In this document: positions 32,376 to 45,555 of the stretch, one piece after another
Numbering within the stretch: the stretch's first letter is position 1
Layout of the letters: the number at the start of each line of letters is the position of its first letter
Assembly: GCA_036338635.1 (NCBI GenBank)
Contig: JAYZBS010000045.1
Coordinates: forward strand, 4,601-68,600
From: Pseudomonadota bacterium
GTDB taxonomy: Bacteria > Pseudomonadota > Alphaproteobacteria > Rhodobacterales > Rhodobacteraceae
DNA: 64,000 bases
Direction: 5' to 3'
Notes under the pieces: model-generated
The model's database searches: none
What the model was told of the DNA's origin: nothing
What the model saw: only the letters and a program-made list of their open reading frames with translations
Program-made: the position numbers and the translations under genes

Positions 32376-32706
32376 CGGGCGGCCCCGCTCGGCGGCGCGT
32401 CAGAGAACGGTGGTCCTGCGGTTTCGCGTCAGCGACGAGGAGCACGGGCGGATCCGCGCGGCCGCTGCTGCGGGCCGTCATGCCAACACGGCTGCCTATC
32501 TGCGCGCCTGCGCGCTGCACGCCGGGCCCCGCCCGGTGCCCGCAGCTCGCCTTGTCGGCGGGCTCGGGCTGATCGCGGGGCGGCTCGCCGCGATCACCCG
32601 GCTGGCCGAGCGGGGCGGGATGGCCGCGATCATCGCGGAGGCGAACGAAGCCGAGGCCGCGCTGGCGGCCTGTCTGCGGGACGTGATGGCGGAGGATGCA
32701 GGATGA
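32359..32706 (+). CDS. Ribbon-helix-helix relaxosome accessory protein (MobC/TraJ-like)
   Basis: RTVVLRFRVSDEEHGRIRAAA..AAYLRACAL; overlaps the relaxase start. Confidence 0.75.
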   Translation: MARAGDGRPRSAARQRTVVLRFRVSDEEHGRIRAAAAAGRHANTAAYLRACALHAGPRPVPAARLVGGLGLIAGRLAAITRLAERGGMAAIIAEANEAEAALAACLRDVMAEDAG

Positions 32707-34517
32707 TCGCGAAGGTGATCCACCCGAAGCGCCGCGCATGTGCCGGCGCCGAGGACCGCTTTGCCGCGCGCCTGCGCTATGCCTGCGGCAAGGCCGCGGC
32801 CATCGAGACGGGCAATCTGGTCGGCACCTGGCCGGCGGCGGCGGTGCAGATGCGCGTGGTTGCGGCGGCAAGCGCGCGGGTGCGCCAGCCCTGCCACCAT
32901 GTCGTCCTGTCTTGGGGCGACGGGGAGGCGCCGTCCGACACGGCGGCCCTCGCCGCGGGCCGGATGGTGGTGCTGCGGATGGGCTGGCAGGACCATCAGC
33001 ATGTGCTGGCCGTGCACCGCGATCGCCCGAACCTGCATGTCCATCTGGTGTTGAACCGGGTCCATCCGCGGACCGGAAGAGCCTGCTCGCTCGGCCATGA
33101 CTATGCCCGGCTCGAGCATGCCTGCCGCAGCACCGAGATGGTCTTCGGCTGGCCCCCGGATCGCGGCCGGTTCCAGACGGAAATGAGTAAGGGCGTGCTG
33201 CGGCTGGTGCCGATGCCGGAGGCGCATTGGCGGGCCCGCCATGCGGCGCGGGAGGCCGGGCTGCGCACCGATCCGCTCAGCGTGCGCGGACCCGAACGGC
33301 GTTCGGGCACGGCACCCCTGCGCGACCGGCTGCCGGCCTCGATCCTGCAGCGCGCGCAACAGCTGCTTGCGGATGTGGCCAGTTGGGCGGGGCTTCATGC
33401 GGGTCTTGCCGCACTCGGCCTGCGCTATCTGCGCCATGGCAGCGGGGCGCGCGTGACGGAGAGGGACGGCAGCGGCGCCATGCCGGCCTGTCATCTGGGC
33501 GCCGCCTTCGGATTGGCCCGCATGGTAGCGCGGCTCGGGCGCTTCCGCCCTGCCCCGACACCAGACGCCGTTCTGCCGGTTGTGGCTCGGCCGGAAGCCG
33601 CAGCGCGCGCGGCGTATGACCGCGCCCGCGCCGAACGTCGGGCGCGGCGGGCCGACCTTGGCCGCGAGCACAAGGCCGAACGCAGTGGGCTGGGCCATGC
33701 GCTGCGCGGGCTCGATCCCGTCATTGCCGACGCCTTTCGGGTGGCGCTGCAGGCCGAGCAGCGCGCGGCGCGGACGGCGTTCCGCGCCATCCCGCTGCCG
33801 CGCCTGGCCGATTACGGGATGACGATCCCGGCCCCGACCTCATGGGCATCCCGCGACAGCCGGCATCGGCATCTGCGGCGCGAGGCGCAATGCTGGCAGG
33901 CGGATCCCACCTTCCCGCGCCCACCGCTCGATCACACCCGCGCCCGCCAATTGTGGCACTTGGCAAGTGCGCAGGCGGGGCCTGACGACCGTCATGTCCA
34001 TGCCGATGATGGGGCGGGTCTGCGGCGCGTCGCCAAGAGCCGGATGCTGCTGGCCCGGCGCAGCCCGGACGAGGCGGTGCTCGGCTATGACTTGATCACC
34101 GAGACGCGCGACGGACGCCTGATCGCCACTCCGATCTCCGGCATGCACCACGCCCTCGGGCTGATCGGCCCGCGCCGGGCGCGGCACTGCCTGGTGACGA
34201 CGGATGCGGGCATGGGCGCGAGGCTCGCGGTCGCAAGGCCGACCGAGCTGGTGATCGTCGCGTCCCCCTCCCCTGCCCCGCGACTGGCCGGCTGGTTGCG
34301 GAAGCTCGTGGGGGGCCGCTCGGCCTCTCTCGACTGCGCAGCAGGTTCGGATGATGCGGCGCAGCTGCGCGCCTGCTTGCCGCAGGCTGTCCTGTCCGAC
34401 GCTGGTGCCCCCGGACCTGTGGCACTACCGCCGCGACAGGACATGCATGCTGCCGAGATAGAGAGCGACGCGCGCGCTGCGACGGACCCCGGGGATGATC
34501 CCCCTGCCCCGGGCTGA
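32703..34517 (+). CDS. MOBP-type relaxase
   Basis: Motif I Tyr (RLRYAC), motif II CHHVVLSW, motif III AVHRDRPNLHVHLVLNRVHP. Confidence 0.88.
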   Translation: MIAKVIHPKRRACAGAEDRFAARLRYACGKAAAIETGNLVGTWPAAAVQMRVVAAASARVRQPCHHVVLSWGDGEAPSDTAALAAGRMVVLRMGWQDHQHVLAVHRDRPNLHVHLVLNRVHPRTGRACSLGHDYARLEHACRSTEMVFGWPPDRGRFQTEMSKGVLRLVPMPEAHWRARHAAREAGLRTDPLSVRGPERRSGTAPLRDRLPASILQRAQQLLADVASWAGLHAGLAALGLRYLRHGSGARVTERDGSGAMPACHLGAAFGLARMVARLGRFRPAPTPDAVLPVVARPEAAARAAYDRARAERRARRADLGREHKAERSGLGHALRGLDPVIADAFRVALQAEQRAARTAFRAIPLPRLADYGMTIPAPTSWASRDSRHRHLRREAQCWQADPTFPRPPLDHTRARQLWHLASAQAGPDDRHVHADDGAGLRRVAKSRMLLARRSPDEAVLGYDLITETRDGRLIATPISGMHHALGLIGPRRARHCLVTTDAGMGARLAVARPTELVIVASPSPAPRLAGWLRKLVGGRSASLDCAAGSDDAAQLRACLPQAVLSDAGAPGPVALPPRQDMHAAEIESDARAATDPGDDPPAPG

Positions 34518-34805: not shown

Positions 34806-36824
34806 ATGCCCATGACCATCACCCGGACCATCAACACCAGCGATGGCACGCAGATCTCCGAGAACAGGTCGATGTGCTGCCGGCATGTGTCGAGCCTTCT
34901 GCCCGAACTGACCGACCCGGAGCGTGTCGTCGAGGCCAGTCATGAGGAGACGAGCGCAGCTGCTGTCTCTCCCGTCCATTCGGAGGAACCGTTCAGCAGC
35001 TTGTCCCGCGACAAGGCCTTTGCAGAGGCGGCAGGGCCGACTGTGGAAGACACCGCCCACCCCGACAGGGTGCCCTTGCGGACCTCCGCGGCGTCAGGTG
35101 CGCGAGGCCCGGATGGGCAGGTAGCCGAAGGCGACGCGGACCTGCGCCGCTTCTTCGAGGATATCCATCGCACCCTGCCGACGAACTTTACCCTGAATGA
35201 GAACATCCCATGCATTCTCTACAAGGGCATGAGGTTCTGCGACCCGCTGCGTGTCGTGTCTCACGCCCGTCGCATCGATGGCACGGGCTGGATGCTCGAT
35301 CTGGAGATCCTCGACGGCGACATGACGCCCCGCCGGATGCCGGTGTCGCGGATGGATCTCAAATCCAAGCCGACCATGCTGCTCAGCGCGCTCGCCGATC
35401 GCGGCTTCCGGCTCTTTTGCCTGCGGGAGGACTTTTTCGAGTTCTTGAACATCTGGGACCGCGCGCCGAGAAGTTGGCGCGCGGATCACCCCGGGTGGTT
35501 CGAGGCGCCCTCGGATGCGCCCAGCTATCTGCGCCCCGATGGGACCCGGCACGCCCCGGCCAGGGCGCAGGCAGAGGCCGTTCTGGCCGAACCGCTGCGT
35601 GATCCCTACGGCCGGTCCGGCAGCCTGGCCGGCTGGCAGACGGAGATCGCCCGCCGGGCGATCGACAATCCGGCCCTCGTCTTTGCCATCTCGGCGGCGC
35701 TCGCCGGCCCGCTGCCGCGACTGGTCGGGCTTCAGACCGCGGGCTTCAATTTCTTTGGCACCGCGGCCAGCGGCAAGTCGCTCCTGCTCCATGTGGCAGC
35801 GAGCGTGCTTGGCCACCCGGAGGGGGTCAGCCCCTGGTCGGCAGCCACCACCGGTCTGCATCGGCTGAGCGCGGAGGCGCAGGACAGCCTGCTGGCGCTC
35901 GATGGCTACCCGCTCCGGCCCGACGGCCAGCACCGGCGCGCTCTGCTCGCGATCGGCAATGATGCCGGGGCCGGCCGGGCGCTGTCTGCGCGCGATCCGC
36001 ATGGCAGCAAGCGCTGGCGGCGGGTGATCCTGTCCACTTCGGAGACCCCGCTTCGCAGCAGCCTCGGGCAAGGCAAGCAGGCGCCCCCTGCCCCGCTCTT
36101 GCGCCGCATGATCGATCTGCCGGCTGAAATCCACGCGCACGGAGCTTTTGCGGCTCTTCACGGCGCCGCGGATGGCGCCAGTTTCACGCGCGGGCTGGAA
36201 CGCGCGCTACGCCGGCATCACGGCCATCTTCTTCCGGCATTTCTGGAACGGTTGATTGCAGATCTCGACCGGCATGCCGAGACCCTCGACGCCGATCTTC
36301 AGCGCCTCACCACCCGGATCATGGCGCATGCGCAGCGTGCGGCGCCATCCTCCCCCGCCGCCGACGCCCCCGGCGCCGAGCGCCTCGCCCTTGTCGGCTG
36401 CGCCGGCGAGATGGCCATCCGCTTCGGGTTGCTGCCCTGGCCAGACGGCACGGCAAGCGAGGCCACACATGCGATGGCCAACCTGGCGCAACACTTACCG
36501 ACGGGATCAGGCTGGGACGCCTCACGGGCCCGGGCCGAACTGCGCCGCTATGCCGAGAAGAACGACACCCGGATCGTCGATCTCGACGCGGCCCCGCGGC
36601 CTACCGGCGATGTCCCTCTCGTCGGCTGGCAGGATCGCGATCATCTCTACCTGTCCGGCGATCCGCTGCGGGGCGAAGTCGAGGCGCTCGACGACTTGCT
36701 GGCCGCCGTCGATCATATCCTGAAGCCCGGCGGCGAGGCCCGATCAAAGCAATACCGCATGCCCGCGACGAAGGTCCCCGACCGGCCCCGGGTCTATCGC
36801 TTCGACAAGGCAAAGCTCGGATAG
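34806..36824 (+). CDS. DUF927 (Cch-like) P-loop helicase-family protein
   Basis: GSLAGWQ..LVFAISAALAGPL, Walker A GTAASGKS, WRRVILSTSE, RMIDLP. Confidence 0.82.
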   Translation: MPMTITRTINTSDGTQISENRSMCCRHVSSLLPELTDPERVVEASHEETSAAAVSPVHSEEPFSSLSRDKAFAEAAGPTVEDTAHPDRVPLRTSAASGARGPDGQVAEGDADLRRFFEDIHRTLPTNFTLNENIPCILYKGMRFCDPLRVVSHARRIDGTGWMLDLEILDGDMTPRRMPVSRMDLKSKPTMLLSALADRGFRLFCLREDFFEFLNIWDRAPRSWRADHPGWFEAPSDAPSYLRPDGTRHAPARAQAEAVLAEPLRDPYGRSGSLAGWQTEIARRAIDNPALVFAISAALAGPLPRLVGLQTAGFNFFGTAASGKSLLLHVAASVLGHPEGVSPWSAATTGLHRLSAEAQDSLLALDGYPLRPDGQHRRALLAIGNDAGAGRALSARDPHGSKRWRRVILSTSETPLRSSLGQGKQAPPAPLLRRMIDLPAEIHAHGAFAALHGAADGASFTRGLERALRRHHGHLLPAFLERLIADLDRHAETLDADLQRLTTRIMAHAQRAAPSSPAADAPGAERLALVGCAGEMAIRFGLLPWPDGTASEATHAMANLAQHLPTGSGWDASRARAELRRYAEKNDTRIVDLDAAPRPTGDVPLVGWQDRDHLYLSGDPLRGEVEALDDLLAAVDHILKPGGEARSKQYRMPATKVPDRPRVYRFDKAKLG

Positions 36825-36858: not shown

Positions 36859-37413
36859 ACGACAGCTTCTCGGCCGGTTCTGCAAGAGGTTCTCGGTGCT
36901 AAGGGCCATGATCTCCACTGTGGCGCGGCCCTTTATGTCAGGCAGTCGGGGGGCAGTGTCCATGTCCCATTGTGCCGGCGGAACGGTATCCGGTTCGAGT
37001 CGCAAGGGGCAGTCCAGCAAGCCCACCATGTCTCATCTGGTCCACCGCCTGGACATCTCTATCGCCATTCCAACCTCGACCGGCGCTTCAGTCGCCCACT
37101 CGTCTCGGCGCTCCCGCAGCGCGGCCATCATTCACCGTGGTCAAACCTTCGCCGGGTCGTTTCCAACCGTTGGGCTAGCAATTTGTGGGTCATCCAAAGA
37201 CGTGTGGCGATGTCCATCTTGGCGTATCGTATGTCATCAACTGCCAGCACGTCCGATTTTCCCGCAACGTAGTTTTTTCCTGCTGCGGTGTTGACATGCC
37301 GATTCGCGACCGCCAGAATCACCCCATGTCGCGGCAAATGCCCGACGGGCCTCAGCGGGGCATCCTACCTCCCCGCCGAGACCCTGACCAGCCAATCTGA
37401 TGTGGAGACTGAC

Positions 37414-37917
37414 ATGGCTACCGATACCCCTACCACCGCGCCTAGCGCGGCGAAAGCGCCGTTCTGGTCCGCCAGCTTCTACGGCTTGCAGTTCATTTCT
37501 CTCCTCGACGCATGGGGCGAGCATATCACGGCTCAGCGCATCCTGGAATGGACCGACCCTGCCGATCCCGGTTACGAGCGTGCGGCGGCTTGGGCCGAGA
37601 TGGCGCTGCCGAGCTTTCATCAGACTCTCCTCAACGCGCTCGAGGCCGCGCCGAAGGAGCCGCTCGATCTGCCCCTGCGCCGGATGACGCTTCTCGTCGC
37701 GACGCTGGTCCGGGAGGACCGCGGCTCGGCTTTTATTCGCTACGAAGCGTTGAAGAGCGAGTTTGCGCCGTTCTTCGTCGTCACGGGCGGAGGTCCTGCG
37801 GCGGATGAAGTGCGTGCGATGCTCGCTTCCGCCGAACGGCGTCTGACGTTGATGTCGCGGCTGTCCTGCTATCGCACCGAGAGTGCGGCGTGCGAAGCCG
37901 AGCTGCTCGCAGCCTGA
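37414..37917 (+). CDS. Hypothetical protein (167 aa)
   Basis: RBS GGAGA before ATG 37414; GC-rich third codon positions; no motif recognised. Confidence 0.7.
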   Translation: MATDTPTTAPSAAKAPFWSASFYGLQFISLLDAWGEHITAQRILEWTDPADPGYERAAAWAEMALPSFHQTLLNALEAAPKEPLDLPLRRMTLLVATLVREDRGSAFIRYEALKSEFAPFFVVTGGGPAADEVRAMLASAERRLTLMSRLSCYRTESAACEAELLAA

Positions 37918-38068
37918 CACTTCTCCTGATTCCTGACAGCCTGGGCTGACGCCTTCCGGATCTGCGGGTGGCGCCATCTCGCGCGTCGATGTCCGCGTTT
38001 CGACATCGGTGCCCCCACGCGTGTCCGGCTGTCCCTTTTTTTTCCCATTCCAAACGGGAGGACCACGC

Positions 38069-39115
38069 ATGTCCTTTTATGACCTTGCCCCGGCCGACAC
38101 CAACGGCGGGGAATTCCATCCCATCTACGCGCACCCCATCCCGGATCACTGGCATGATTGGGCTGAGGACAAGGGCTTCGAGATCGTCGAGCGCGTCCTG
38201 GACAAGAACCATCTCCAGCTGCGTTGCGACAGCTGCGGCGGAGACATGGTTTCAAAGGTCTTCGTGTTGCGCTCCGCGACGCCGCGCTGTCCGCACTGTC
38301 TCAATGACCGACGCGAGCGCTTGTGCGCCGAGGCTGGCGTCACCTTTATCGAGGCCGACGGATCGCATGACTTCTGGATCCGCTTGCCATGCGGTCATGA
38401 GACGGGCCGGCAGCAGTCGCTCCTGGAACGCGTCAGGGCGGTCGAGGTCAATATCCGCTGCGAAGACTGCCTCGACGCGCGGCTGGAGGCGGAGGCGGAA
38501 GCCCGCGGGTGGCGGGTCATCGATGGTGATCCCGACGGCGACCATGATTACCTGCTTTATCGGCACGGCTGCGGTCATGAGCAGCGGGCTGCAATCATCA
38601 ACATGCGCACGGGACGCCTGACATGCCATGGCTGCAGCGACGCGTGGACCAGCGCTCCGAGCTACATCTATGCGATGCGTTTCGGTCTTAAGAGCGGGCG
38701 GAATGCAATCAAGGTCGGATATTCCCGTGATCCGTGGTCGCGCCTGCGCCATCAGCTGGTGACCGACCTCGAGCAAGACGCCGAACTGGTTCGGGTCATC
38801 CCGATCCGCACCGGCCATGACGCTATCCGGCGCGAGAAGCGCCTGCATGCCATGCTGCGCGATCTTCATCCCGAGGCCGTGCTGGAGCCGGCTGAGTTCG
38901 CCGGTCAGGTCAAGGTCAGGTCGGAGCTCTACTGCGCCAGCATTGAACCCGAGATCATGGCCCTGCTGGACGACATCGAGCTGCGCGTCAGGTCGCTGGC
39001 GAAGCGTGCCAAAAGGCTCGCCCGCCGCCGCGCGCGGCAGGAGGCTCGGCGCGCCAGGAACCATCAGCGCCGCAAGCGGAACGGTGGCTGCGGCGCCCGC
39101 GCCGCCATCGTCTGA
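38069..39115 (+). CDS. Triple Zn-finger-repeat protein with C-terminal GIY-YIG (T5orf172-like) nuclease
   Basis: RBS GGGAGG; CDSC..CPHC / CGH..CEDC / CGH..CHGC repeats; YIY..IKVGYSRDPWSRL..REKRLH..SELY. Confidence 0.82.
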   Translation: MSFYDLAPADTNGGEFHPIYAHPIPDHWHDWAEDKGFEIVERVLDKNHLQLRCDSCGGDMVSKVFVLRSATPRCPHCLNDRRERLCAEAGVTFIEADGSHDFWIRLPCGHETGRQQSLLERVRAVEVNIRCEDCLDARLEAEAEARGWRVIDGDPDGDHDYLLYRHGCGHEQRAAIINMRTGRLTCHGCSDAWTSAPSYIYAMRFGLKSGRNAIKVGYSRDPWSRLRHQLVTDLEQDAELVRVIPIRTGHDAIRREKRLHAMLRDLHPEAVLEPAEFAGQVKVRSELYCASIEPEIMALLDDIELRVRSLAKRAKRLARRRARQEARRARNHQRRKRNGGCGARAAIV

Positions 39116-39163
39116 CGACGCCCACCGATCACGCAATCCGATCCAATTCATATGGAGGTCCCG

Positions 39164-41293
39164 ATGACCGATCCTGACACGCCGGCAGCCGTTCCGCCTT
39201 GCCCCGAATGGCGCACTTACGCCGCCGAGATCCTCGACCGCGCGCGCGAGGAGGAGAAGCGCAATGACGCCGAGCGGGCAATCCTGCTTCAGGAGCATGG
39301 CGAGGCCGCTGACGACCTGCCCCCGCTGCGCGGCGAAGGCGCGGTGTCGTATACGTCCCGCCGGCAGCAGATGATGATCCTCTGCCTCGCGGCGACCGTC
39401 GGCAGCGAAGCCCGGCTGCGGGAGGAGCTGGAGCGCAAAGCCGTCGTCGCGATCACCGGCCTGCCGGATGATCTCCTCAAAGATGCGCGCCGGCTCCTGC
39501 CGCTCCTCCTCCCGCCTGGCTGGCAGATTGCGCGGACGGAGCACGAGCGCCGACGTCCCGGCGCGGTCGCGGTGATCGAACCCGGACAGAGCTACAGCGG
39601 CTACGCCCGAGAACAAATGGAGAAAAATCTGGTGGAGGCCCTGACGCTGGATGTGCCGCTTATCCTGCTGCTGCCTGACGCGATATCGGCCGGAGAGATC
39701 CTTGGTGCGGCGGAGGTTCCGCGCTGGCCGTATCGCAGAATGGATCGCGAGATCGCCGCGGAGCTGCTTGCGCTGAGCTGGCCGCAATCCGACCCTGCGG
39801 CCCTTCGCGAGGAGCTGCCGTCAGATGATCAGCTCACGGCGACACCGATGCTGGCTCTCATGCTCGCACTGCGCAGCGACAACATCGAAGAGGCCGCAAA
39901 GGTGCTCCGCGACACGCCCCGGGAGCCGAACCCCGGGACCTTCAAGGACAAGTTCAAAGCGATCGCGCCCGACAAGGCGAAGGCGGAGGCGCGGAAACAG
40001 ACCGGCATTCGCCTCGCTGATCTCGCGGGCCTCGGCGCAGCGCGCGATGTGGCTCTCGGCATCGTCGAGGACCTGAAGGCGTGGCAGGCTGGCGAGCTCT
40101 CCTGGGACGCAGTCCATCGCGGCACGCTCGTCGCCGGCCCTCCCGGCGTCGGCAAAACAGAGTTGGCCCGCGCGATGGCACGCGAACGTGGCATCCACCT
40201 TGAGAGCGGCAGCTACGCTCAGTGGCAATCTCGCGGCGCCCTGGGGGATATGCTCAAGGCGATGCGCGCCAGCTTCGCGACGGCGGCCGACCAGGCGCCG
40301 TCGATCCTTTTTTTGGACGAGCTCGACGCCTTCGGGTCGCGGACGAGCGCGCGAACCAGCCAGCATCAGAGCTACGACACCAAAGTGATTGCCGCCTTGC
40401 TGGAGCAGCTCGACGGCGTCGAGGGGCGGGAGGGTGTCGTAGTGCTGGGCGCGTGCAACCATCCGGACCACATCGACCCCGCAATCCTGCGCGCGGGGCG
40501 TTTCGACACGTGCGTCGAGATATCCCGACCCGACGCCGTGGCCCTCGCGATCATCCTGCGCCAACACCTCGAAAATGACCTGCCCGAGGCCGACCTCACC
40601 GCGCTCGGGCAGATGGCCTTCGGCCTCTCGGGCGCGGACTGCGCGGCCGCCGTTCGGGCGGCACGAGGCGTTGCCCGCCGCGCGGGGCGGCCGCTGACGC
40701 CCGACGATCTGCGCACGGCGCTGGTCCCGAACCATCTCGCGCTGCCCCCGGACATGCGCCGCCGCGCGGCTGTTCATGAAGCCGGCCACGCCGTGGTAAT
40801 GACCGCGCTCGGCGTGGGCGAGGTGAAGGTCCTTCGCCTCAGCCCGGACGGCGGCGAAACGCAACTGCGCTGGTTCAACATGGACGTGACGCGGAACATG
40901 CTGCAGCAGCGCTGCGCCGCGCATCTCGCGGGGCGCGCCGCCGAAATCCTGCTGCTGGGAGAGCCAAGCGGCGGCGCTGGTGGCACCGACGACAGCGATC
41001 TGCACGCCGCGACCGTGCTCATGCTGCAGTGCCACTTGAGCCTCGGCTTGGGGGACGTGGGCCATCTCTCGCTTGGCGCGCCACCCGCGGCAACGACGCT
41101 GCTCGCGCTGCCGGGGTTCATGCGGCAGAACATGCAGCGCGACCTCGACCGGGCGCTCACACTGGCACTGGAAGTTCTCCAACGGCATCGGCCGACCTTG
41201 GAAAGCCTCGCGCGGGATCTCGAGATCCGAGGCTTCCTGGTGGAAGCGGATCTGACAGCGGCGCTGGCCCCAATCGGGGAGAAACTGCCATAA
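39164..41293 (+). CDS. Soluble FtsH-like AAA+ ATPase / peptidase M41
   Basis: GGAGG RBS before ATG 39164; GPPGVGKT, FLDELD, ACNH, ILRAGRFD, HEAGH, SDLHAAT; no TM helix. Confidence 0.88.
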   Translation: MTDPDTPAAVPPCPEWRTYAAEILDRAREEEKRNDAERAILLQEHGEAADDLPPLRGEGAVSYTSRRQQMMILCLAATVGSEARLREELERKAVVAITGLPDDLLKDARRLLPLLLPPGWQIARTEHERRRPGAVAVIEPGQSYSGYAREQMEKNLVEALTLDVPLILLLPDAISAGEILGAAEVPRWPYRRMDREIAAELLALSWPQSDPAALREELPSDDQLTATPMLALMLALRSDNIEEAAKVLRDTPREPNPGTFKDKFKAIAPDKAKAEARKQTGIRLADLAGLGAARDVALGIVEDLKAWQAGELSWDAVHRGTLVAGPPGVGKTELARAMARERGIHLESGSYAQWQSRGALGDMLKAMRASFATAADQAPSILFLDELDAFGSRTSARTSQHQSYDTKVIAALLEQLDGVEGREGVVVLGACNHPDHIDPAILRAGRFDTCVEISRPDAVALAIILRQHLENDLPEADLTALGQMAFGLSGADCAAAVRAARGVARRAGRPLTPDDLRTALVPNHLALPPDMRRRAAVHEAGHAVVMTALGVGEVKVLRLSPDGGETQLRWFNMDVTRNMLQQRCAAHLAGRAAEILLLGEPSGGAGGTDDSDLHAATVLMLQCHLSLGLGDVGHLSLGAPPAATTLLALPGFMRQNMQRDLDRALTLALEVLQRHRPTLESLARDLEIRGFLVEADLTAALAPIGEKLP

Positions 41294-41756
41294 ACGTCCT
41301 GATGCCGTCCCGATGAGACGATGATTGGCTACGACGGAGGCTGCATGACCATTGCGGGCTCTCAAGCGGCAAGCCCCGGCCGTCGCCATTGCTCAATCGA
41401 TCAAAGCGAGAGACTGCGCCCCGGAGGGGGTAAATGCTGCGAGATTGCCGGGACGAGACTGCCCGGCGGCGCCCTGCCCGGGATTTCGCCCGCAACACTC
41501 GTATGGCTGCGTGAAGGTCCCGGCGCCGCGTGCTTCTTGCCTTCCCTCACCAAGTCGTTATGTTCTGGCGCGCCCGGCCGGGAAGGCCGGGCCTGTTGCG
41601 CGTGCATCCGCATGCGCCGACGCGCGGCCTTTCGTGGCGCGCCTTCGGCCTGAACGCCGATCCGGATAAAGCCGCGGCCTGCGGCATTCGCAAACAGCGG
41701 TTGCCGCCTGCGGCATCGCCTTGGGCCGCTTTGTGTCAACAACGACGACAGGTGCA

Positions 41757-43394
41757 ATGCAACCCTATACACTTGGAACACCGCTGATCCTTTCGCTGAT
41801 GCTTCTGTTCTTCGGCGGGACCTTTTTTCTTTCGCTTTCCGTCGGCCGCAGACGCGAGAACGCCGACAACTACATGACTGCGGGCAATCAGGTCGGCTTC
41901 GGCATCTCTGCCGCCTCGATGACTGCGACCTGGATCTGGGCCTCATCGCTCTATGCCTCCGCCACATCCGGATACACCTATGGGATTTCCGGCCCGATCC
42001 ATTACGGATTGTGGGGCGCGCTGATGATCCTGTTCATCTATCCCTTCGGCCGTCGTATCCGCAGTCTGGCACCAGAGGCGCATACGCTGGCCGAGATCCT
42101 GCACGCGCGGCATGGCCGGTCCAGCCAGCTGATCCTTGCAGGGTCCAACGTGCTCGGCAGCCTGCTCAGCCTGACATCCAACTTCATCGCCGGCGGCGCG
42201 CTGATCGCGATGCTGTCGCCCTTGTCCTTCAGCGCGGGCATCCTGATGATCGCGAGCGGCGTGCTGCTTTACACGCTGTGGTCGGGGGTGCGGGCGTCGA
42301 TCCTGACCGACTTCATTCAGGTCTGCGCGATGTTGGGGGCCGTCGTGGTGATCGTGCCGGCGGTGTTCTTCGCAGCGGGCGGTCCGGCGATCTTCACCGA
42401 AGGGGCCATGAACCTGACCCCCTCGCAGCAGAACTTCTTTTCTTCCGATGCGTTTTTCAATCAGGGCGCGCCCTATATCGCGGCAGTTCTGGCCTATGCG
42501 ATCGGCAACCAGACCATCGCGCAGCGCCTGTTTGCCGTGCGCGAGGACAAGATCAAGCAGACCTTCGTCACCGCGACAGTCGGTTATGGCGCAACGGTGA
42601 TCGGCGTCGGCGTGCTGGGCGTGCTGGCACTCTATCTGGGCGTCGACCCGGCCGGAGGCGATACGAACAACCTGATCCCGCAGCTTGCCTCGACCTATCT
42701 GGGGCCACTTCTTCTGTGCGTGTTCTTCGTGATGGTCATCGGATCGCTGGCCTCGACGGCGGATTCGGATCTGGCGGCTATGTCGTCGATCGTGATGACC
42801 GACATCTATGGCCGCAACATCGCCAAGGGCGATGCGGACCCGCGCCTGATGCTGCTGATCGGGCGCGTCACGATGATCATCGCCACCGGCGCCGCGCTGT
42901 TCTTTGCCAGCGCGAAGTTCAACATTCTTGAGCTGCTGGTTCTGGTCGGGGCGATCTGGGGGGCACTGGTCTTTCCCGTGATCGCCAGCTTCTATTGGGC
43001 CAAGGTCACCAACCGCGCCTTCACCGTGTCGGTTCTAGCTGCATTGGCGGCGTTCTTTCCCGTGCGCTTCGGGCTGATCCCGCTGGAGGGTGGCTTGGCC
43101 ATCGTCACCGACGTTCTGGCAGTGATCGGCGTCGGCGTGATCGCGGGGCTGATGATCTTCGGCTTTCTGGGCGCCCGCGCCGGCGTCTCGGCCGGGATCA
43201 TGGCGACACTGGTCGTCCTGCCCTTCGGGATCGGTTTTCTGCATCTCTATCCGGTGCTGACGGCCTCGCTGCTGGCCTATGCCATCAGCATGATCCTGTG
43301 CGTCGCCCTGTCCTGGGGCAGTGACGAGCAGTTCGACTTCAAACGCATCAGCCGCAAGACCGGCAGCTTCGACCAAAACAAAGTCACAGCCTGA
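41757..43394 (+). CDS. Sodium:solute symporter family protein (DUR3/urea-transporter-like)
   Basis: YMTAG..SMTATWIWASS, SILTDFIQ, LASTADSDL; many TM helices. Confidence 0.85.
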   Translation: MQPYTLGTPLILSLMLLFFGGTFFLSLSVGRRRENADNYMTAGNQVGFGISAASMTATWIWASSLYASATSGYTYGISGPIHYGLWGALMILFIYPFGRRIRSLAPEAHTLAEILHARHGRSSQLILAGSNVLGSLLSLTSNFIAGGALIAMLSPLSFSAGILMIASGVLLYTLWSGVRASILTDFIQVCAMLGAVVVIVPAVFFAAGGPAIFTEGAMNLTPSQQNFFSSDAFFNQGAPYIAAVLAYAIGNQTIAQRLFAVREDKIKQTFVTATVGYGATVIGVGVLGVLALYLGVDPAGGDTNNLIPQLASTYLGPLLLCVFFVMVIGSLASTADSDLAAMSSIVMTDIYGRNIAKGDADPRLMLLIGRVTMIIATGAALFFASAKFNILELLVLVGAIWGALVFPVIASFYWAKVTNRAFTVSVLAALAAFFPVRFGLIPLEGGLAIVTDVLAVIGVGVIAGLMIFGFLGARAGVSAGIMATLVVLPFGIGFLHLYPVLTASLLAYAISMILCVALSWGSDEQFDFKRISRKTGSFDQNKVTA

Positions 43395-44504: not shown

Positions 44505-45555
44505 GGCTTTGTTGCGCAAAGTCTGAAGGGGGATTCAGCTGTCGACTCCAGCGTGGTAACCGTGCTGCATGAGCAGACCCACCCCGCCGAGCTACAAGAC
44601 CAAGAACTGGCCAGCGTATAACGAAGCCCTCAAGCAGCGCGGCTCTCTGACCATCTGGTTCGACCCGGACATGGCGTGGGTGCCGCCACCGACCGGCATG
44701 CGAGGCCGGCAGCCGCAGTATAGCGATGCCGCGATCCAGACGTGCCTGACGATGAAGGTGCTCTTCGGCATGGCGCTCCGTCAGACGAGCGGCTTCGTCG
44801 AGAGCCTGCTGCGCCTGGCCGGCCTCGATTGGACGGTGCCGGATTTCAGCACGCTGAGCAGGCGCCAGAAGACGTTGGCCGTGTCCATTCCCTACCGGGG
44901 CTCACAGGGGCCGCTGAACCTGCTGATCGACAGCACCGGCATCAAGGCGGAGGGCGAAGGCGAGTGGAATGCCCGCAAGCACGGCGGCGCGAAACGCCGC
45001 CTCTGGCGCAAGATCCACATCGGCGTCGATGAACAGACGCTGGAAATTCGAGCCATCGAGGTTACCGGTAGCAGCGTCGGCGATGCGCCCATGCTGCCTG
45101 AACTGCTCAGCCAGATCCCCGCCGGTGTGGAGCTCGGCACGGTCACCGCGGATGGCGCCTACGACACGCGCAAGTGCCATGACGCCGTCGCCGACCGAGG
45201 CGCCCATGCGATCATTCCGCCGCGCAGGAACGCCAGGCCCTGGAAGCCATCGACAGCGGGCGCGATCGCCCGGAACGAAGCACTGCGCGCATCGAAATAC
45301 CTCGGCCGCGCGATTTGGCGAAAGTGGAGCGGTTACCATCGCCGAAGCCGCGCCGAGACGAAGATGCATTGCGTGAAGCTGCTCGGGCAGAGCCTCATGG
45401 CACGCGACTTCGACCGCCAAGTCGCTGAACTCCAAATCCGCGCCGCCGTGCTCAACGGCTACACCGCGCTCGGCATACCTGTCACAGAACTCGTGGGATA
45501 AGCCCGCCAGGGGAAAGGGGAAGCCCGGCCTTCAAGCTCTTTGCGCAACAAAGCC
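44505..45555 (+). mobile_element. Intact IS5-family (IS903 group) element, 1051 bp
   Basis: Perfect 16-bp TIR GGCTTTGTTGCGCAAA at 44505-44520 and 45540-45555; no flanking direct repeat. Confidence 0.95.
44569..45501 (+). CDS. IS5-family DDE transposase
   Basis: IDSTG, ADGAYD, RSRAETKM; uninterrupted 310 aa. Confidence 0.95.
   Translation: MSRPTPPSYKTKNWPAYNEALKQRGSLTIWFDPDMAWVPPPTGMRGRQPQYSDAAIQTCLTMKVLFGMALRQTSGFVESLLRLAGLDWTVPDFSTLSRRQKTLAVSIPYRGSQGPLNLLIDSTGIKAEGEGEWNARKHGGAKRRLWRKIHIGVDEQTLEIRAIEVTGSSVGDAPMLPELLSQIPAGVELGTVTADGAYDTRKCHDAVADRGAHAIIPPRRNARPWKPSTAGAIARNEALRASKYLGRAIWRKWSGYHRRSRAETKMHCVKLLGQSLMARDFDRQVAELQIRAAVLNGYTALGIPVTELVG

What the first reader, a model, noticed from the sequence alone, without database searches (positions are those of the whole stretch)
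37414..41293. Orphan + Zn-finger GIY-YIG nuclease + soluble FtsH-like protease: candidate undescribed defence or addiction system
Three co-oriented cargo genes on a mobile element; the nuclease and protease genes are only 48 nt apart. All catalytic motifs look intact (GIY-YIG Tyr/Arg/Glu; Walker A/B, Arg finger, HEAGH plus third Zn-ligand Asp). It is established that ATPase-protease-nuclease combinations on mobile elements often act in anti-phage defence, and that proteolysis can activate or remove effectors. I know of no named system with this M41 + T5orf172 combination. I infer that the AAA-M41 enzyme either keeps the nuclease degraded until a phage inhibits it, or cleaves an inhibitor (the orphan) upon sensing infection.
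Basis: inference. Interest (0 to 1): 0.82.

Follow-up and report, generated by a model that had tools for sequence, protein, structure and literature searches.

The report
Mobile-element nuclease plus soluble FtsH-like protease
Three neighbouring genes (a small helical protein, a zinc-finger DNA-cutting enzyme and a membrane-free FtsH-like protease) form a conserved, horizontally transferred unit in marine and soil alphaproteobacteria that matches no described defence or toxin-antitoxin system and whose function has not been tested.

Summary
The genes are ORPH (37414-37917), a 3x zinc-finger + T5orf172/GIY-YIG endonuclease (38069-39115), and a soluble AAA + M41 protease (39164-41293). They are co-oriented and all catalytic residues are intact.

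The refutation test "not co-conserved" fails:
- The nuclease is followed by the protease in at least 17 of 22 genera of the family that carry it.
- ORPH is conserved upstream.
- The module is patchy (about 30 of 400 genera) and sits on mobile elements. These are often small integrative mobilizable elements: MobV relaxase, a divergent RHH gene, ORPH, nuclease, protease, then a large serine recombinase.
- An 11.5-kb copy is 99.87% identical between two genera.

New findings:
- The nuclease slot is exchangeable (T5orf172 type, CoiA-like, a small PD-(D/E)xK-like protein, and once an Xre-RES toxin-antitoxin pair). ORPH and the protease stay constant and co-diverge.
- The protease's "novel" N-terminus folds as a dead AAA module.
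- ORPH carries an acidic tail with a nonpolar end, which looks like a degron.

No component matches PADLOC beyond generic AAA hits, and I found no literature on such a system. The defence-island signal is modest.

My best reading (about 0.45) is a protease-gated nuclease conflict module carried by mobile elements. Function is inferred, not shown. This scan has not recorded the module on other DNA.

The parts
37291..37319 (+). sigma-70-like promoter candidate (TTGACA-17-CAGAAT), about 95 nt upstream of ORPH
   Evidence: It is the only hit in the 5.1 kb scanned (shuffles give 0.6 on average). This is a consensus match only.
37414..37917 (+). ORPH: a 167-aa protein (helical by sequence pattern; no model built) with no Pfam, NCBIfam, PHROG or PADLOC hit. 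It has a conserved MATxxxTT N-terminus, ERDLE and D-x-PL-[KR]-R motifs, and an acidic tail ending ...AELLAA.
   Evidence: Homologues lie upstream of the nuclease/protease in about 25 loci.
38069..39115 (+). Endonuclease with three CxxC/CxH...CxxC zinc modules (about residues 50-190), a T5orf172-type GIY-YIG domain (198-290) and a long basic C-terminal helix (290-339)
   Evidence: AF2 model pLDDT 88. Foldseek against BFVD gives E down to 2.6e-18 to phage zinc-ribbon, CapR-homology, T5orf172 and homing-endonuclease proteins. phrog_681 endonuclease 9.5e-13. T5orf172 is hit by 8 of 30 family members. Catalytic and zinc-ligand residues are invariant.
39164..41293 (+). Soluble tandem-AAA M41 protease: degenerate AAA-like module (about 95-255), active classical AAA module (about 320-510) and M41 zinc peptidase (about 535-650). 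An alternative start lies at 39152.
32703..34517 (+). Context: MOBP-type relaxase (MobA/VirD2 nuclease domain, TraI middle domain)
34806..36824 (+). Context: DUF927 protein, the putative replication/helicase gene of the mobilisable element

Best explanation
The three genes are one operon-like module that mobile elements carry between Rhodobacterales.

Shown:
- The constant parts are ORPH and a soluble hexamer-type protease. The protease is built from a dead AAA-like module, a live classical AAA module and an M41 zinc peptidase.
- The gene between them is an exchangeable gene. Here it is a zinc-finger/T5orf172 endonuclease of the kind phages use as sequence-directed homing nucleases; the other fillers are predicted nucleases only from motifs.

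Inferred:
- The protease is an ATP-driven gate that sets the amount or activity of the nuclease by proteolysis.
- ORPH works with the protease as a competing substrate, adaptor or sensor, not as a nuclease-specific inhibitor. Its disordered acidic tail with a nonpolar end resembles the C-terminal tags that FtsH-type proteases recognise. The logic would resemble lambda CII/CIII/FtsH.
- The released or stabilised nuclease cuts incoming DNA (phage or rival elements) or, on loss of the element, the host's own DNA. Either way the module protects the element and its host in genetic conflicts.
For: Co-inheritance:
- The nuclease is followed by the protease in at least 17 of 22 genera that have the nuclease.
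- The trio or quartet order RHH<, ORPH>, NUC>, PROT> recurs in about 25 loci.
- The same metagenomic contigs hold close homologues of all three genes.
- Within T5orf172-type loci, nuclease and protease divergences correlate (Spearman 0.79) and every catalytic and zinc-ligand residue is invariant.

Modularity typical of conflict systems:
- The middle gene changes type at least 3 times on the protease tree. The types are T5orf172, CoiA-like and a small PD-(D/E)xK-like protein.
- In L124 a bona fide Xre-RES toxin-antitoxin pair occupies the ORPH-NUC position.
- Within one genome (L147 versus L148), PROT + recombinase are 83% identical at the DNA level while ORPH and NUC are only 31-36% identical at the protein level.

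ORPH-protease link:
- ORPH identity tracks the protease (0.73), not the nuclease (0.12).
- The last residue of ORPH is nonpolar in 19 of 21 cases against 37% of background genes, and the tail is acidic.

Protease competence:
- All ATPase and peptidase motifs are invariant.
- The N-domain folds as an AAA module without a P-loop. As in p97/NSF-type double rings, this could supply the hexamerisation that the missing membrane anchor gives FtsH (inference).

Mobility:
- Relaxase and DUF927 lie upstream here.
- MobV and a large serine recombinase flank the module elsewhere.
- An 11.5-kb block is 99.87% identical between two genera and ends at the recombinase gene's 3' end.

Autonomy: the module also stands alone among housekeeping genes (L081, L084).

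Some copies adjoin CRISPR, Mza, PD-T7-1, Z1 or type I R-M loci.
Against: - No phenotype, expression or interaction data.
- Defence-gene neighbours are a minority.
- No PADLOC model or paper links M41 proteases to defence.
- An intact nuclease occurs without a functional protease (L155, L150) and without ORPH (L081). Neither partner is therefore needed to tolerate the nuclease, and the gating step is unproven.
- The pore-loop motif is W-Q rather than FtsH's F-V-G, so substrate threading is assumed.
- The CoiA-like and small PD-(D/E)xK assignments rest on motif inspection only; no HMM hit reaches significance.
- The correlations are over related, non-independent loci.
Confidence: 0.45

Rival explanations
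1. Self-contained addiction (post-segregational killing) module. The nuclease is the toxin and ORPH is an unstable neutraliser. The element brings its own AAA protease so that the neutraliser's turnover does not depend on the host's Lon, Clp or FtsH. Loss of the element would then free the nuclease.
For: - The module sits in small mobile elements and plasmids.
- The gene order, small protein then effector, resembles antitoxin-toxin.
- An Xre-RES pair sits in the same position in L124.
- ORPH has a degron-like tail.
- A divergent RHH regulator is present in 17 or more loci.
Against: - The same ORPH family pairs with three unrelated middle-gene families (one confirmed nuclease, two predicted from motifs) and tracks the protease rather than the nuclease.
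- L081 keeps nuclease + protease without ORPH.
- A nuclease with a three-module zinc-finger array resembles sequence-specific homing enzymes and need not be toxic to its host.
Confidence: 0.2
2. Life-cycle switch of the mobile element. The protease removes a repressor (the RHH protein or ORPH), much as ImmA cleaves ImmR in ICEBs1. This would switch on excision and mobilisation. The nuclease would serve the element's own DNA processing.
For: - The protease gene lies about 0.5 kb upstream of, and co-oriented with, the large serine recombinase in 13 loci.
- PROT + recombinase move as one block (L147/L148).
- A divergent RHH gene faces the relaxase side.
- Relatives in Rhizobiales and others sit directly upstream of Tn7-like tnsA/B/C-tniQ genes.
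Against: - The module occurs with no recombinase or relaxase within 10 kb (L081, L084).
- In the window it occurs with a different (MOBP/DUF927) backbone and no RHH gene.
- An element-processing nuclease would not be expected to be swapped among unrelated folds, or replaced by an Xre-RES pair.
Confidence: 0.17
3. The nuclease is a selfish homing endonuclease gene that has settled in a landing pad between ORPH and the protease gene. Only ORPH and the protease would form a functional pair.
For: - The closest structural relatives are phage T5orf172, CapR-homology and homing endonucleases.
- Different nuclease families occupy the same slot.
- The nuclease lies at a recombination boundary in L147/L148.
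- That pattern has been reported for T5orf172 genes in phages (title of PMC10448857, listed; I did not read the paper).
Against: - No "empty" ORPH-protease junction was seen in about 28 loci with ORPH.
- Nuclease and protease co-diverge at similar rates (Spearman 0.79), and all catalytic residues are invariant down to about 30% identity.
- No relative turned up in 2.9 million viral contigs or 50,697 phage records.
Confidence: 0.08

Closest known systems
FtsH (M41 AAA+ zinc protease), including its lambda CII/CIII regulatory circuit
   Same: It has a classical AAA module with Walker A/B and arginine fingers, followed by an HEAGH M41 peptidase with an Asp third ligand. The proposed logic, a small protein that modulates degradation of a second substrate, mirrors lambda CIII/CII (recalled from established knowledge, not tested here).
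   Different: It has no transmembrane or periplasmic N-terminus. In their place is a P-loop-less AAA-like module. The pore loop reads W-Q, not F-V-G. TIGR01241 scores 160 bits against a 600-bit cut-off. The gene is accessory and mobile, not a housekeeping gene.
IetAS (Gao et al. 2020 defence system: AAA ATPase IetA + S8 protease IetS)
   Same: An FtsH/Cdc48-type AAA ATPase is combined with a protease. The AAA module matches the IetA models at 2e-21 and NCBIfam IteA at 1e-21.
   Different: The match covers the generic AAA core only (78 bits against a 510-bit cut-off). The protease is M41 and fused, not a separate subtilase. A nuclease and ORPH are added. No IetS homologue is present.
Phage and satellite T5orf172 nucleases (ICP1 Odn, PLE CapR, putative homing endonucleases)
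   Same: They share an N-terminal zinc-ribbon/treble-clef DNA-binding array plus a C-terminal T5orf172 GIY-YIG-type domain. Foldseek against BFVD gives E down to 2.6e-18, and phrog_681 gives 9.5e-13.
   Different: This nuclease family was found in bacterial chromosomes and plasmids, with none in phage or viral collections. It is always linked to an AAA protease and co-diverges with it.
Tripartite toxin-antitoxin systems (for example toxin-antitoxin-chaperone)
   Same: A small upstream protein is followed by an effector and then a proteostasis component, and the unit is mobile. In one locus a true Xre-RES pair takes the ORPH-NUC place.
   Different: The third component is a protease, not a chaperone. 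ORPH is not specific to one toxin fold. Variants lacking ORPH or the protease keep an intact nuclease.
ImmR/ImmA regulation module of ICEBs1
   Same: A metalloprotease gene sits next to the element's recombinase gene, with a small DNA-binding regulator nearby.
   Different: ImmA is a small ATP-independent peptidase that cleaves an adjacent HTH repressor. Here the protease is an AAA-M41 machine, the regulator is RHH and divergent, and a nuclease is interposed. The module also exists without any recombinase.

Membership tests
FtsH (TIGR01241 / M41 AAA proteases) | AAA module with Walker A, Walker B and second-region-of-homology arginines | tested here: met
   PF00004 4.5e-29. K335, D389-E390, R447 and R450 are invariant in 19 relatives.
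FtsH (TIGR01241 / M41 AAA proteases) | HEXXH zinc site plus a third acidic ligand in an M41 domain | tested here: met
   PF01434 33.5 bits against a 29.9-bit cut-off. H542, E543, H546 and D616 are invariant.
FtsH (TIGR01241 / M41 AAA proteases) | N-terminal membrane anchor (two transmembrane helices and a periplasmic domain) | tested here: not met
   No transmembrane segment. Residues 1-314 fold as a soluble AAA-like module.
FtsH (TIGR01241 / M41 AAA proteases) | Equivalog score and the F-V-G pore loop | tested here: not met
   TIGR01241 scores 159.6 bits against a 600-bit cut-off. The pore-loop position reads W358-Q359.
GIY-YIG superfamily, T5orf172/MUG113 branch | Match to the domain model | tested here: inconclusive
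   The window protein scores 17.9 bits, below the 20-bit cut-off. Eight of 30 family members hit T5orf172 (best 4.5e-6) and 5 hit MUG113. The L083 orthologue scores 21.6 bits. phrog_681 endonuclease gives 9.5e-13. BFVD fold matches to T5orf172 and homing-endonuclease proteins reach E 2.6e-18. Taken together these support membership at the family level.
GIY-YIG superfamily, T5orf172/MUG113 branch | Catalytic Tyr (GIY), Arg and Glu conserved | tested here: met
   Y201, R225 and E286 are invariant in 30 homologues and 15 loci. The second Tyr (Y218 here) is Phe in most relatives.
GIY-YIG superfamily, T5orf172/MUG113 branch | Nuclease activity | not testable with these tools
   Needs a biochemical assay.
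IetAS defence system | IetA equivalog plus an adjacent S8 protease IetS | tested here: not met
   The IetA and IteA models match only the AAA core (75-78 bits; NCBIfam cut-off 510). No S8 protease lies in the locus.
Any system in PADLOC-DB v2.0.0 | HMM match of the components | tested here: not met
   ORPH, the nuclease, RHH, and the CoiA-like, c15, c8 and c21 proteins have no hit. The protease has only generic AAA hits.
Type II toxin-antitoxin module | Antitoxin cognate to, and required to tolerate, the toxin | tested here: inconclusive
   ORPH co-occurs with three unrelated nuclease families and tracks the protease. L081 lacks ORPH yet keeps an intact nuclease. No toxicity data exist.
Free-standing homing endonuclease gene | Patchy presence or absence at a conserved site and rapid turnover | tested here: not met
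   No empty site in about 28 loci. The nuclease co-diverges with the protease (0.79).
Defence-island resident | Enrichment of known defence genes among neighbours | tested here: inconclusive
   About 5-6 of roughly 35 loci adjoin CRISPR, Mza, PD-T7-1, Z1 or type I R-M genes. Most neighbours are housekeeping genes. No background rate was computed.

The most novel reading that the evidence does not exclude
This would be the first immune or addiction system built around an FtsH-type (M41) AAA protease. A self-encoded soluble double-ring protease and a fast-evolving, degron-tailed partner would form a proteolytic timer that gates interchangeable nuclease (or RES-toxin) effectors. Small serine-recombinase elements, plasmids and possibly Tn7-like transposons would spread it across Alphaproteobacteria.
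Probability: 0.3. Interest if true: 0.8.

Novelty: new variant of a known kind. Interest (0 to 1): 0.6.

Why it matters
If the function is confirmed, it would add ATP-dependent M41 metalloproteases to the known machinery of bacterial conflict systems. It would also give a compact natural example of proteolysis-gated nucleases with swappable effectors.

The module shows how a membrane protease scaffold can be made soluble by adding a dead AAA ring.

It defines a family of very small integrative mobilizable elements in Rhodobacterales whose only cargo is this module.

The zinc-finger/T5orf172 nuclease is a chromosomal counterpart of phage homing-type nucleases, so its target specificity could be of practical interest.

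Tried and rejected
1. The search for related loci on genome contigs with the protease alignment mostly returned ordinary FtsH genes. Only L001-L005 and L017 were useful.
2. Foldseek of the whole nuclease model against the PDB found nothing (best E 0.012). The viral library was informative instead.
3. A profile search of ORPH against PDB sequences gave only chance-level hits.
4. hhalign between the main ORPH family and the positional analogues c21, u183 and u228 was not significant (probability 2.8%). They do share an M-[AT]-T...TTP start.
5. The CoiA-like and c15 proteins have no significant Pfam, NCBIfam, PHROG, PADLOC or PDB-sequence hit. Their nuclease nature rests on my reading of the motifs: PDV...FDVQ, and GE...D...QVK.
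6. An RHH gene upstream of ORPH in the window was not found by tblastn.
7. No serine recombinase or MobV relaxase was found in the window.
8. Phage GenBank records and IMG/VR contain no relative of the nuclease.
9. Six literature searches found no paper describing an M41 protease in defence or in toxin-antitoxin systems.
10. I considered that the AAA-M41 gene might be the attachment site of Tn7-like elements. I did not adopt this, because the genes in between differ from locus to locus.


Full report
**1. What is in the window**

The region holds three co-oriented ORFs with the high third-position G+C of real genes.
- ORPH runs from 37414 to 37917 and encodes 167 aa. All 23 close homologues are 167-169 aa, which fixes the start.
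- The nuclease runs from 38069 to 39115 and encodes 348 aa. A GGGAGG lies 7 nt before its ATG.
- The protease ORF opens at 39152. A GGAGG 5 nt before the ATG at 39164 and the MTD... N-termini of relatives make 39164-41293 (709 aa) the likely gene.
- One sigma-70-like site, TTGACA-17-CAGAAT, lies at 37291-37319.
- Directly upstream are a MOBP relaxase (32703-34517) and a DUF927 protein (34806-36824). Downstream are a solute:sodium symporter gene and an IS5-family transposase.
- The best named homologues are from Paracoccus. The window is contig C45 of a 3.5-Mb draft genome.

**2. The proteins**

Protease
- Pfam AAA scores 4.5e-29 and Peptidase_M41 scores 5e-8, both above cut-off.
- In an alignment of 19 relatives down to 30% identity, these residues are invariant: Walker A K335, Walker B D389-E390, R447 and R450, H542-E543-xx-H546 and D616.
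- It is not an FtsH orthologue. TIGR01241 scores 160 bits against a 600-bit cut-off. There is no transmembrane segment. The pore-loop position reads W-Q instead of F-V-G.
- An AlphaFold2 model of residues 1-314 (pLDDT 80, pTM 0.72) is an alpha/beta core plus a helical lid. It matches AAA+ modules (proteasome Rpt subunits, RFC, p97, spastin, Vps4, TRIP13) with Foldseek probability near 1 and E from 2e-4 to 4e-3.
- No P-loop is present in that stretch. The architecture is therefore a dead AAA-like module, a live AAA module and an M41 peptidase.
- I infer that the dead ring replaces the membrane anchor as the hexamerisation device. The precedent is double-ring AAA proteins such as p97 and NSF (from established knowledge).

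Nuclease
- The AF2 model (pLDDT 88) shows three repeated zinc modules, a beta-beta-alpha-beta-alpha domain at 198-290 and a 50-residue basic helix.
- Twelve Cys/His ligands, plus Y201, K215, G217, R225, E256, H260 and E286, are invariant in 30 database homologues and in 15 genomic loci.
- Pfam T5orf172 is just below cut-off for this protein (17.9 against 20 bits). It is hit by 8 of 30 relatives.
- phrog_681 "endonuclease" scores 9.5e-13.
- Foldseek against predicted viral structures gives 187 hits at E <= 1e-3, the best at 2.6e-18. They are phage proteins named zinc-ribbon, treble-clef, CapR-homology, T5orf172 or homing endonuclease.
- The PDB library gave nothing.
- It is therefore a bacterial member of the zinc-finger + T5orf172 nuclease architecture known from phages and phage satellites.

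ORPH
- It has no hit in Pfam, NCBIfam, PHROGs or PADLOC, and only chance-level hits (best E 0.015) against PDB sequences.
- It is a real family. The alignment shows a conserved MATxxxTT start, an ERDLE motif and a D-x-PL-[KR]-R motif.
- Its tail is not conserved in sequence but is conserved in character. It is acidic: 4-8 D/E (about 6 on average) in the last 30 residues against 3.5 in background genes. It ends in a nonpolar residue in 19 of 21 cases against 37% of 435 background genes from the same loci. The window's copy ends ...AELLAA.
- From memory, not tested here: FtsH degrades proteins with nonpolar C-terminal tags such as ssrA's ...LAA.

**3. Is the trio co-conserved?**

Yes. I searched 400 genomes, one per genus of the family.
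- 22 have the nuclease and 29 have a protease relative at E <= 1e-50.
- In at least 17 of the 22, the protease lies directly downstream on the same strand. The exceptions are mostly at contig ends.
- tblastn typing of 40 fetched loci gives a recurrent order: a divergent RHH gene (17 or more loci; Pfam RHH_1), ORPH, a middle gene, then the protease.
- Close homologues of all three window genes occur on metagenomic contigs of identical length (12245, 15930, 15660, 10073, 7504, 7663 and 4330 bp). These are presumably the same contigs.
- The one other genome sampled from the same genus lacks the module, so it is an accessory module.

**4. Mobility**

- In 13 loci a large serine recombinase gene (Resolvase + Recombinase + Zn_ribbon_recom) follows the protease by about 0.5 kb.
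- In 4-5 loci a MobV-like relaxase lies beyond the RHH gene. The Mob_Pre hit is weak, at 4e-4.
- Such units are about 8-9 kb, and the module is essentially their only cargo.
- L139 and L157, from two different genera, share 11,483 bp at 99.87% identity. The block ends inside the 3' end of the recombinase gene. This indicates recent horizontal transfer with the recombinase at the element's edge.
- Several genomes hold two or three copies.
- The window's genome has a second, decayed protease copy on contig C185, with two in-frame TAG codons and frameshifts, and no nuclease.
- Decayed remnants also sit on Paracoccus plasmids. One is next to a type I-E CRISPR-Cas locus.
- The module also stands alone among housekeeping genes (L081, L084). 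It is therefore not merely part of one element's backbone.

**5. Modularity**

The middle gene varies.
- It is the T5orf172 type in 21 loci.
- In 4 loci it is a 485-512-aa protein with a CxxC...C zinc site and PDV...FDVQ motifs. I read this as a CoiA-like PD-(D/E)xK nuclease. That is inference only; the weak DUF6035 and DUF7830 hits do not confirm it.
- In 3 loci it is a roughly 200-aa protein with a GE...D...QVK pattern, again PD-(D/E)xK-like by inspection.
- On a maximum-likelihood tree of 35 proteases, these types need at least 2 changes for the CoiA-like type and 1-2 for the small type, with starred support. The slot has therefore been refilled repeatedly.
- In L124 the two genes before the protease are a bona fide Xre(MbcA/ParS)-RES toxin-antitoxin pair (RES 8e-26).
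- In L152, ORPH and the nuclease are followed by a 104-aa gene and a Lon-like AAA ATPase with no peptidase domain.
- Within one genome (L147, L148), protease + recombinase are 83% identical at the DNA level. Yet the ORPH-type proteins share 31% and the nucleases 36%.

**6. Who goes with whom**

- Over 15 loci holding all three genes, ORPH identity correlates with protease identity (Spearman 0.73). It does not correlate with nuclease identity (0.12), because ORPH persists through nuclease swaps.
- Within T5orf172-type loci, nuclease and protease co-diverge (0.79) at similar rates.
- The loci are related, so these numbers are descriptive and not tests.
- ORPH evolves faster than either partner.

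**7. Wider family**

- The AAA-M41 clade extends to Rhizobiales and Acetobacterales.
- In Rhizobium, Agrobacterium and Microvirga, a co-conserved 204-aa protein with a weak TnsA-like match (6e-6) precedes the protease.
- Elsewhere a divergent HTH gene and one or two unannotated genes precede it.
- In five loci from five genera, a Tn7-like tnsA/tnsB/tniB/tniQ set follows within 1-3 kb.
- One Roseibium locus sits between MZB-helicase, PLD-like and UvrD-like genes.

**8. Known systems and literature**

- PADLOC-DB v2 has no model for ORPH, the nuclease or any alternative component. The protease matches only the AAA cores of IetA and TRIP13.
- Among 115 neighbour genes of 30-odd loci there are two CRISPR-Cas loci, MzaB/C, PD-T7-1 and a Z1 protein. 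The rest are transporters and metabolic genes. L083 adjoins a type I R-M system and an integrase.
- This signal is modest and uncalibrated. For a self-mobile unit, neighbours say little in any case.
- Six full-text searches found no description of an M41 protease in a defence or toxin-antitoxin system.

**9. Mechanism**

Shown:
- a co-inherited, mobile module
- a constant ORPH-protease pair
- an exchangeable middle-gene slot (a nuclease here; the other fillers are read as nucleases from motifs only)
- intact catalytic sites in every component

Inferred: the protease gates the nuclease by proteolysis, and ORPH acts on or through the protease as a competing substrate, adaptor or sensor.

- L155 has an intact nuclease with only a 132-aa protease remnant, and that genome showed no protease match at E <= 1e-50 in a screen that scored only two candidates per genome. 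L150 has an intact nuclease beside a frameshifted protease. The protease is therefore not needed to keep the nuclease harmless.
- L081 has nuclease + protease but no ORPH. The same ORPH family also serves three unrelated middle-gene families (one confirmed nuclease, two predicted from motifs). ORPH is therefore unlikely to be a dedicated nuclease inhibitor.
- A homing-type, sequence-directed nuclease need not be toxic to its carrier. That would reconcile these variants with a role against incoming DNA.

I put the conflict-module reading (defence against phages or rival elements) at about 0.45, a self-contained addiction module at 0.2, a life-cycle switch of the element at 0.17 and a selfish homing endonuclease in a landing pad at 0.08. 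The remaining ~0.1 is left for unlinked cargo or an explanation not considered here.

**10. Verdict**

The proposed mechanism does not survive unchanged.

Novelty: a new variant of a known kind, namely a multigene conflict module combining an AAA ATPase, a protease and a nuclease. No M41-based precedent was found.

This scan's index holds only first-reader notes on this same stretch and nothing on other DNA.

Noticed in passing
G000 contig C185:6163-8181 (locus L160), outside the window: A second copy of the AAA-M41 gene, 71-77% identical, is broken by two in-frame TAG codons and frameshifts. It has no nuclease or ORPH upstream, so it is a decaying paralogue in the same genome.
   Followed up: partly
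L002, L004, L124, L164, L167 (relatives in five genera): A Tn7-like gene set (TnsA-like, Mu-transposase_C/TnsB-like, TniB, TniQ) begins 1-3 kb downstream of the AAA-M41 gene, in the same orientation. Either the protease module rides at the transposon's tnsA-proximal end, or this neighbourhood is a preferred target.
   Followed up: partly
L124:10370-11388 (-): A canonical Xre(MbcA/ParS)-RES toxin-antitoxin pair sits exactly where ORPH and the nuclease sit elsewhere, upstream of and co-oriented with an AAA-M41 gene.
   Followed up: partly
L152:8571-10196 (+): RHH, ORPH and a T5orf172 nuclease are followed by a 104-aa gene and a 432-aa Lon-like AAA ATPase with no peptidase domain, in place of the AAA-M41 protease.
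   Followed up: partly
L139:423-11905 versus L157:1-11483: An 11.5-kb block is 99.87% identical between genomes of two different genera. The identity ends inside the 3' end of the large serine recombinase gene, which points to very recent transfer and marks the element's edge.
   Followed up: partly
window 41721-43394 (+) and 44569-45501 (+): A solute:sodium symporter gene (SSF, 2.5e-31) follows the module after a 430-nt G+C-rich spacer, and an intact IS5-family transposase gene follows that. The element's downstream boundary in the window is undefined.
   Followed up: no
window 39164-41293: The protease matches phrog_30773 (unknown function, 1.3e-41, over AAA + part of M41). Some phages therefore encode FtsH-like proteins of similar build.
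   Followed up: no
L163 (Paracoccus aestuarii plasmid NZ_CP067170.1, 21176-21679): A lone ORPH homologue (74% nucleotide identity) lies beside cas3 of a type I-E CRISPR-Cas locus. It is followed by about 1.3 kb with no listed gene, possibly a nuclease remnant.
   Followed up: no
L164:8599-9567 (+): In Aureimonas, an RNase_T-family (DEDD) exonuclease gene follows the AAA-M41 gene. This is another nuclease adjacent to this protease family.
   Followed up: no
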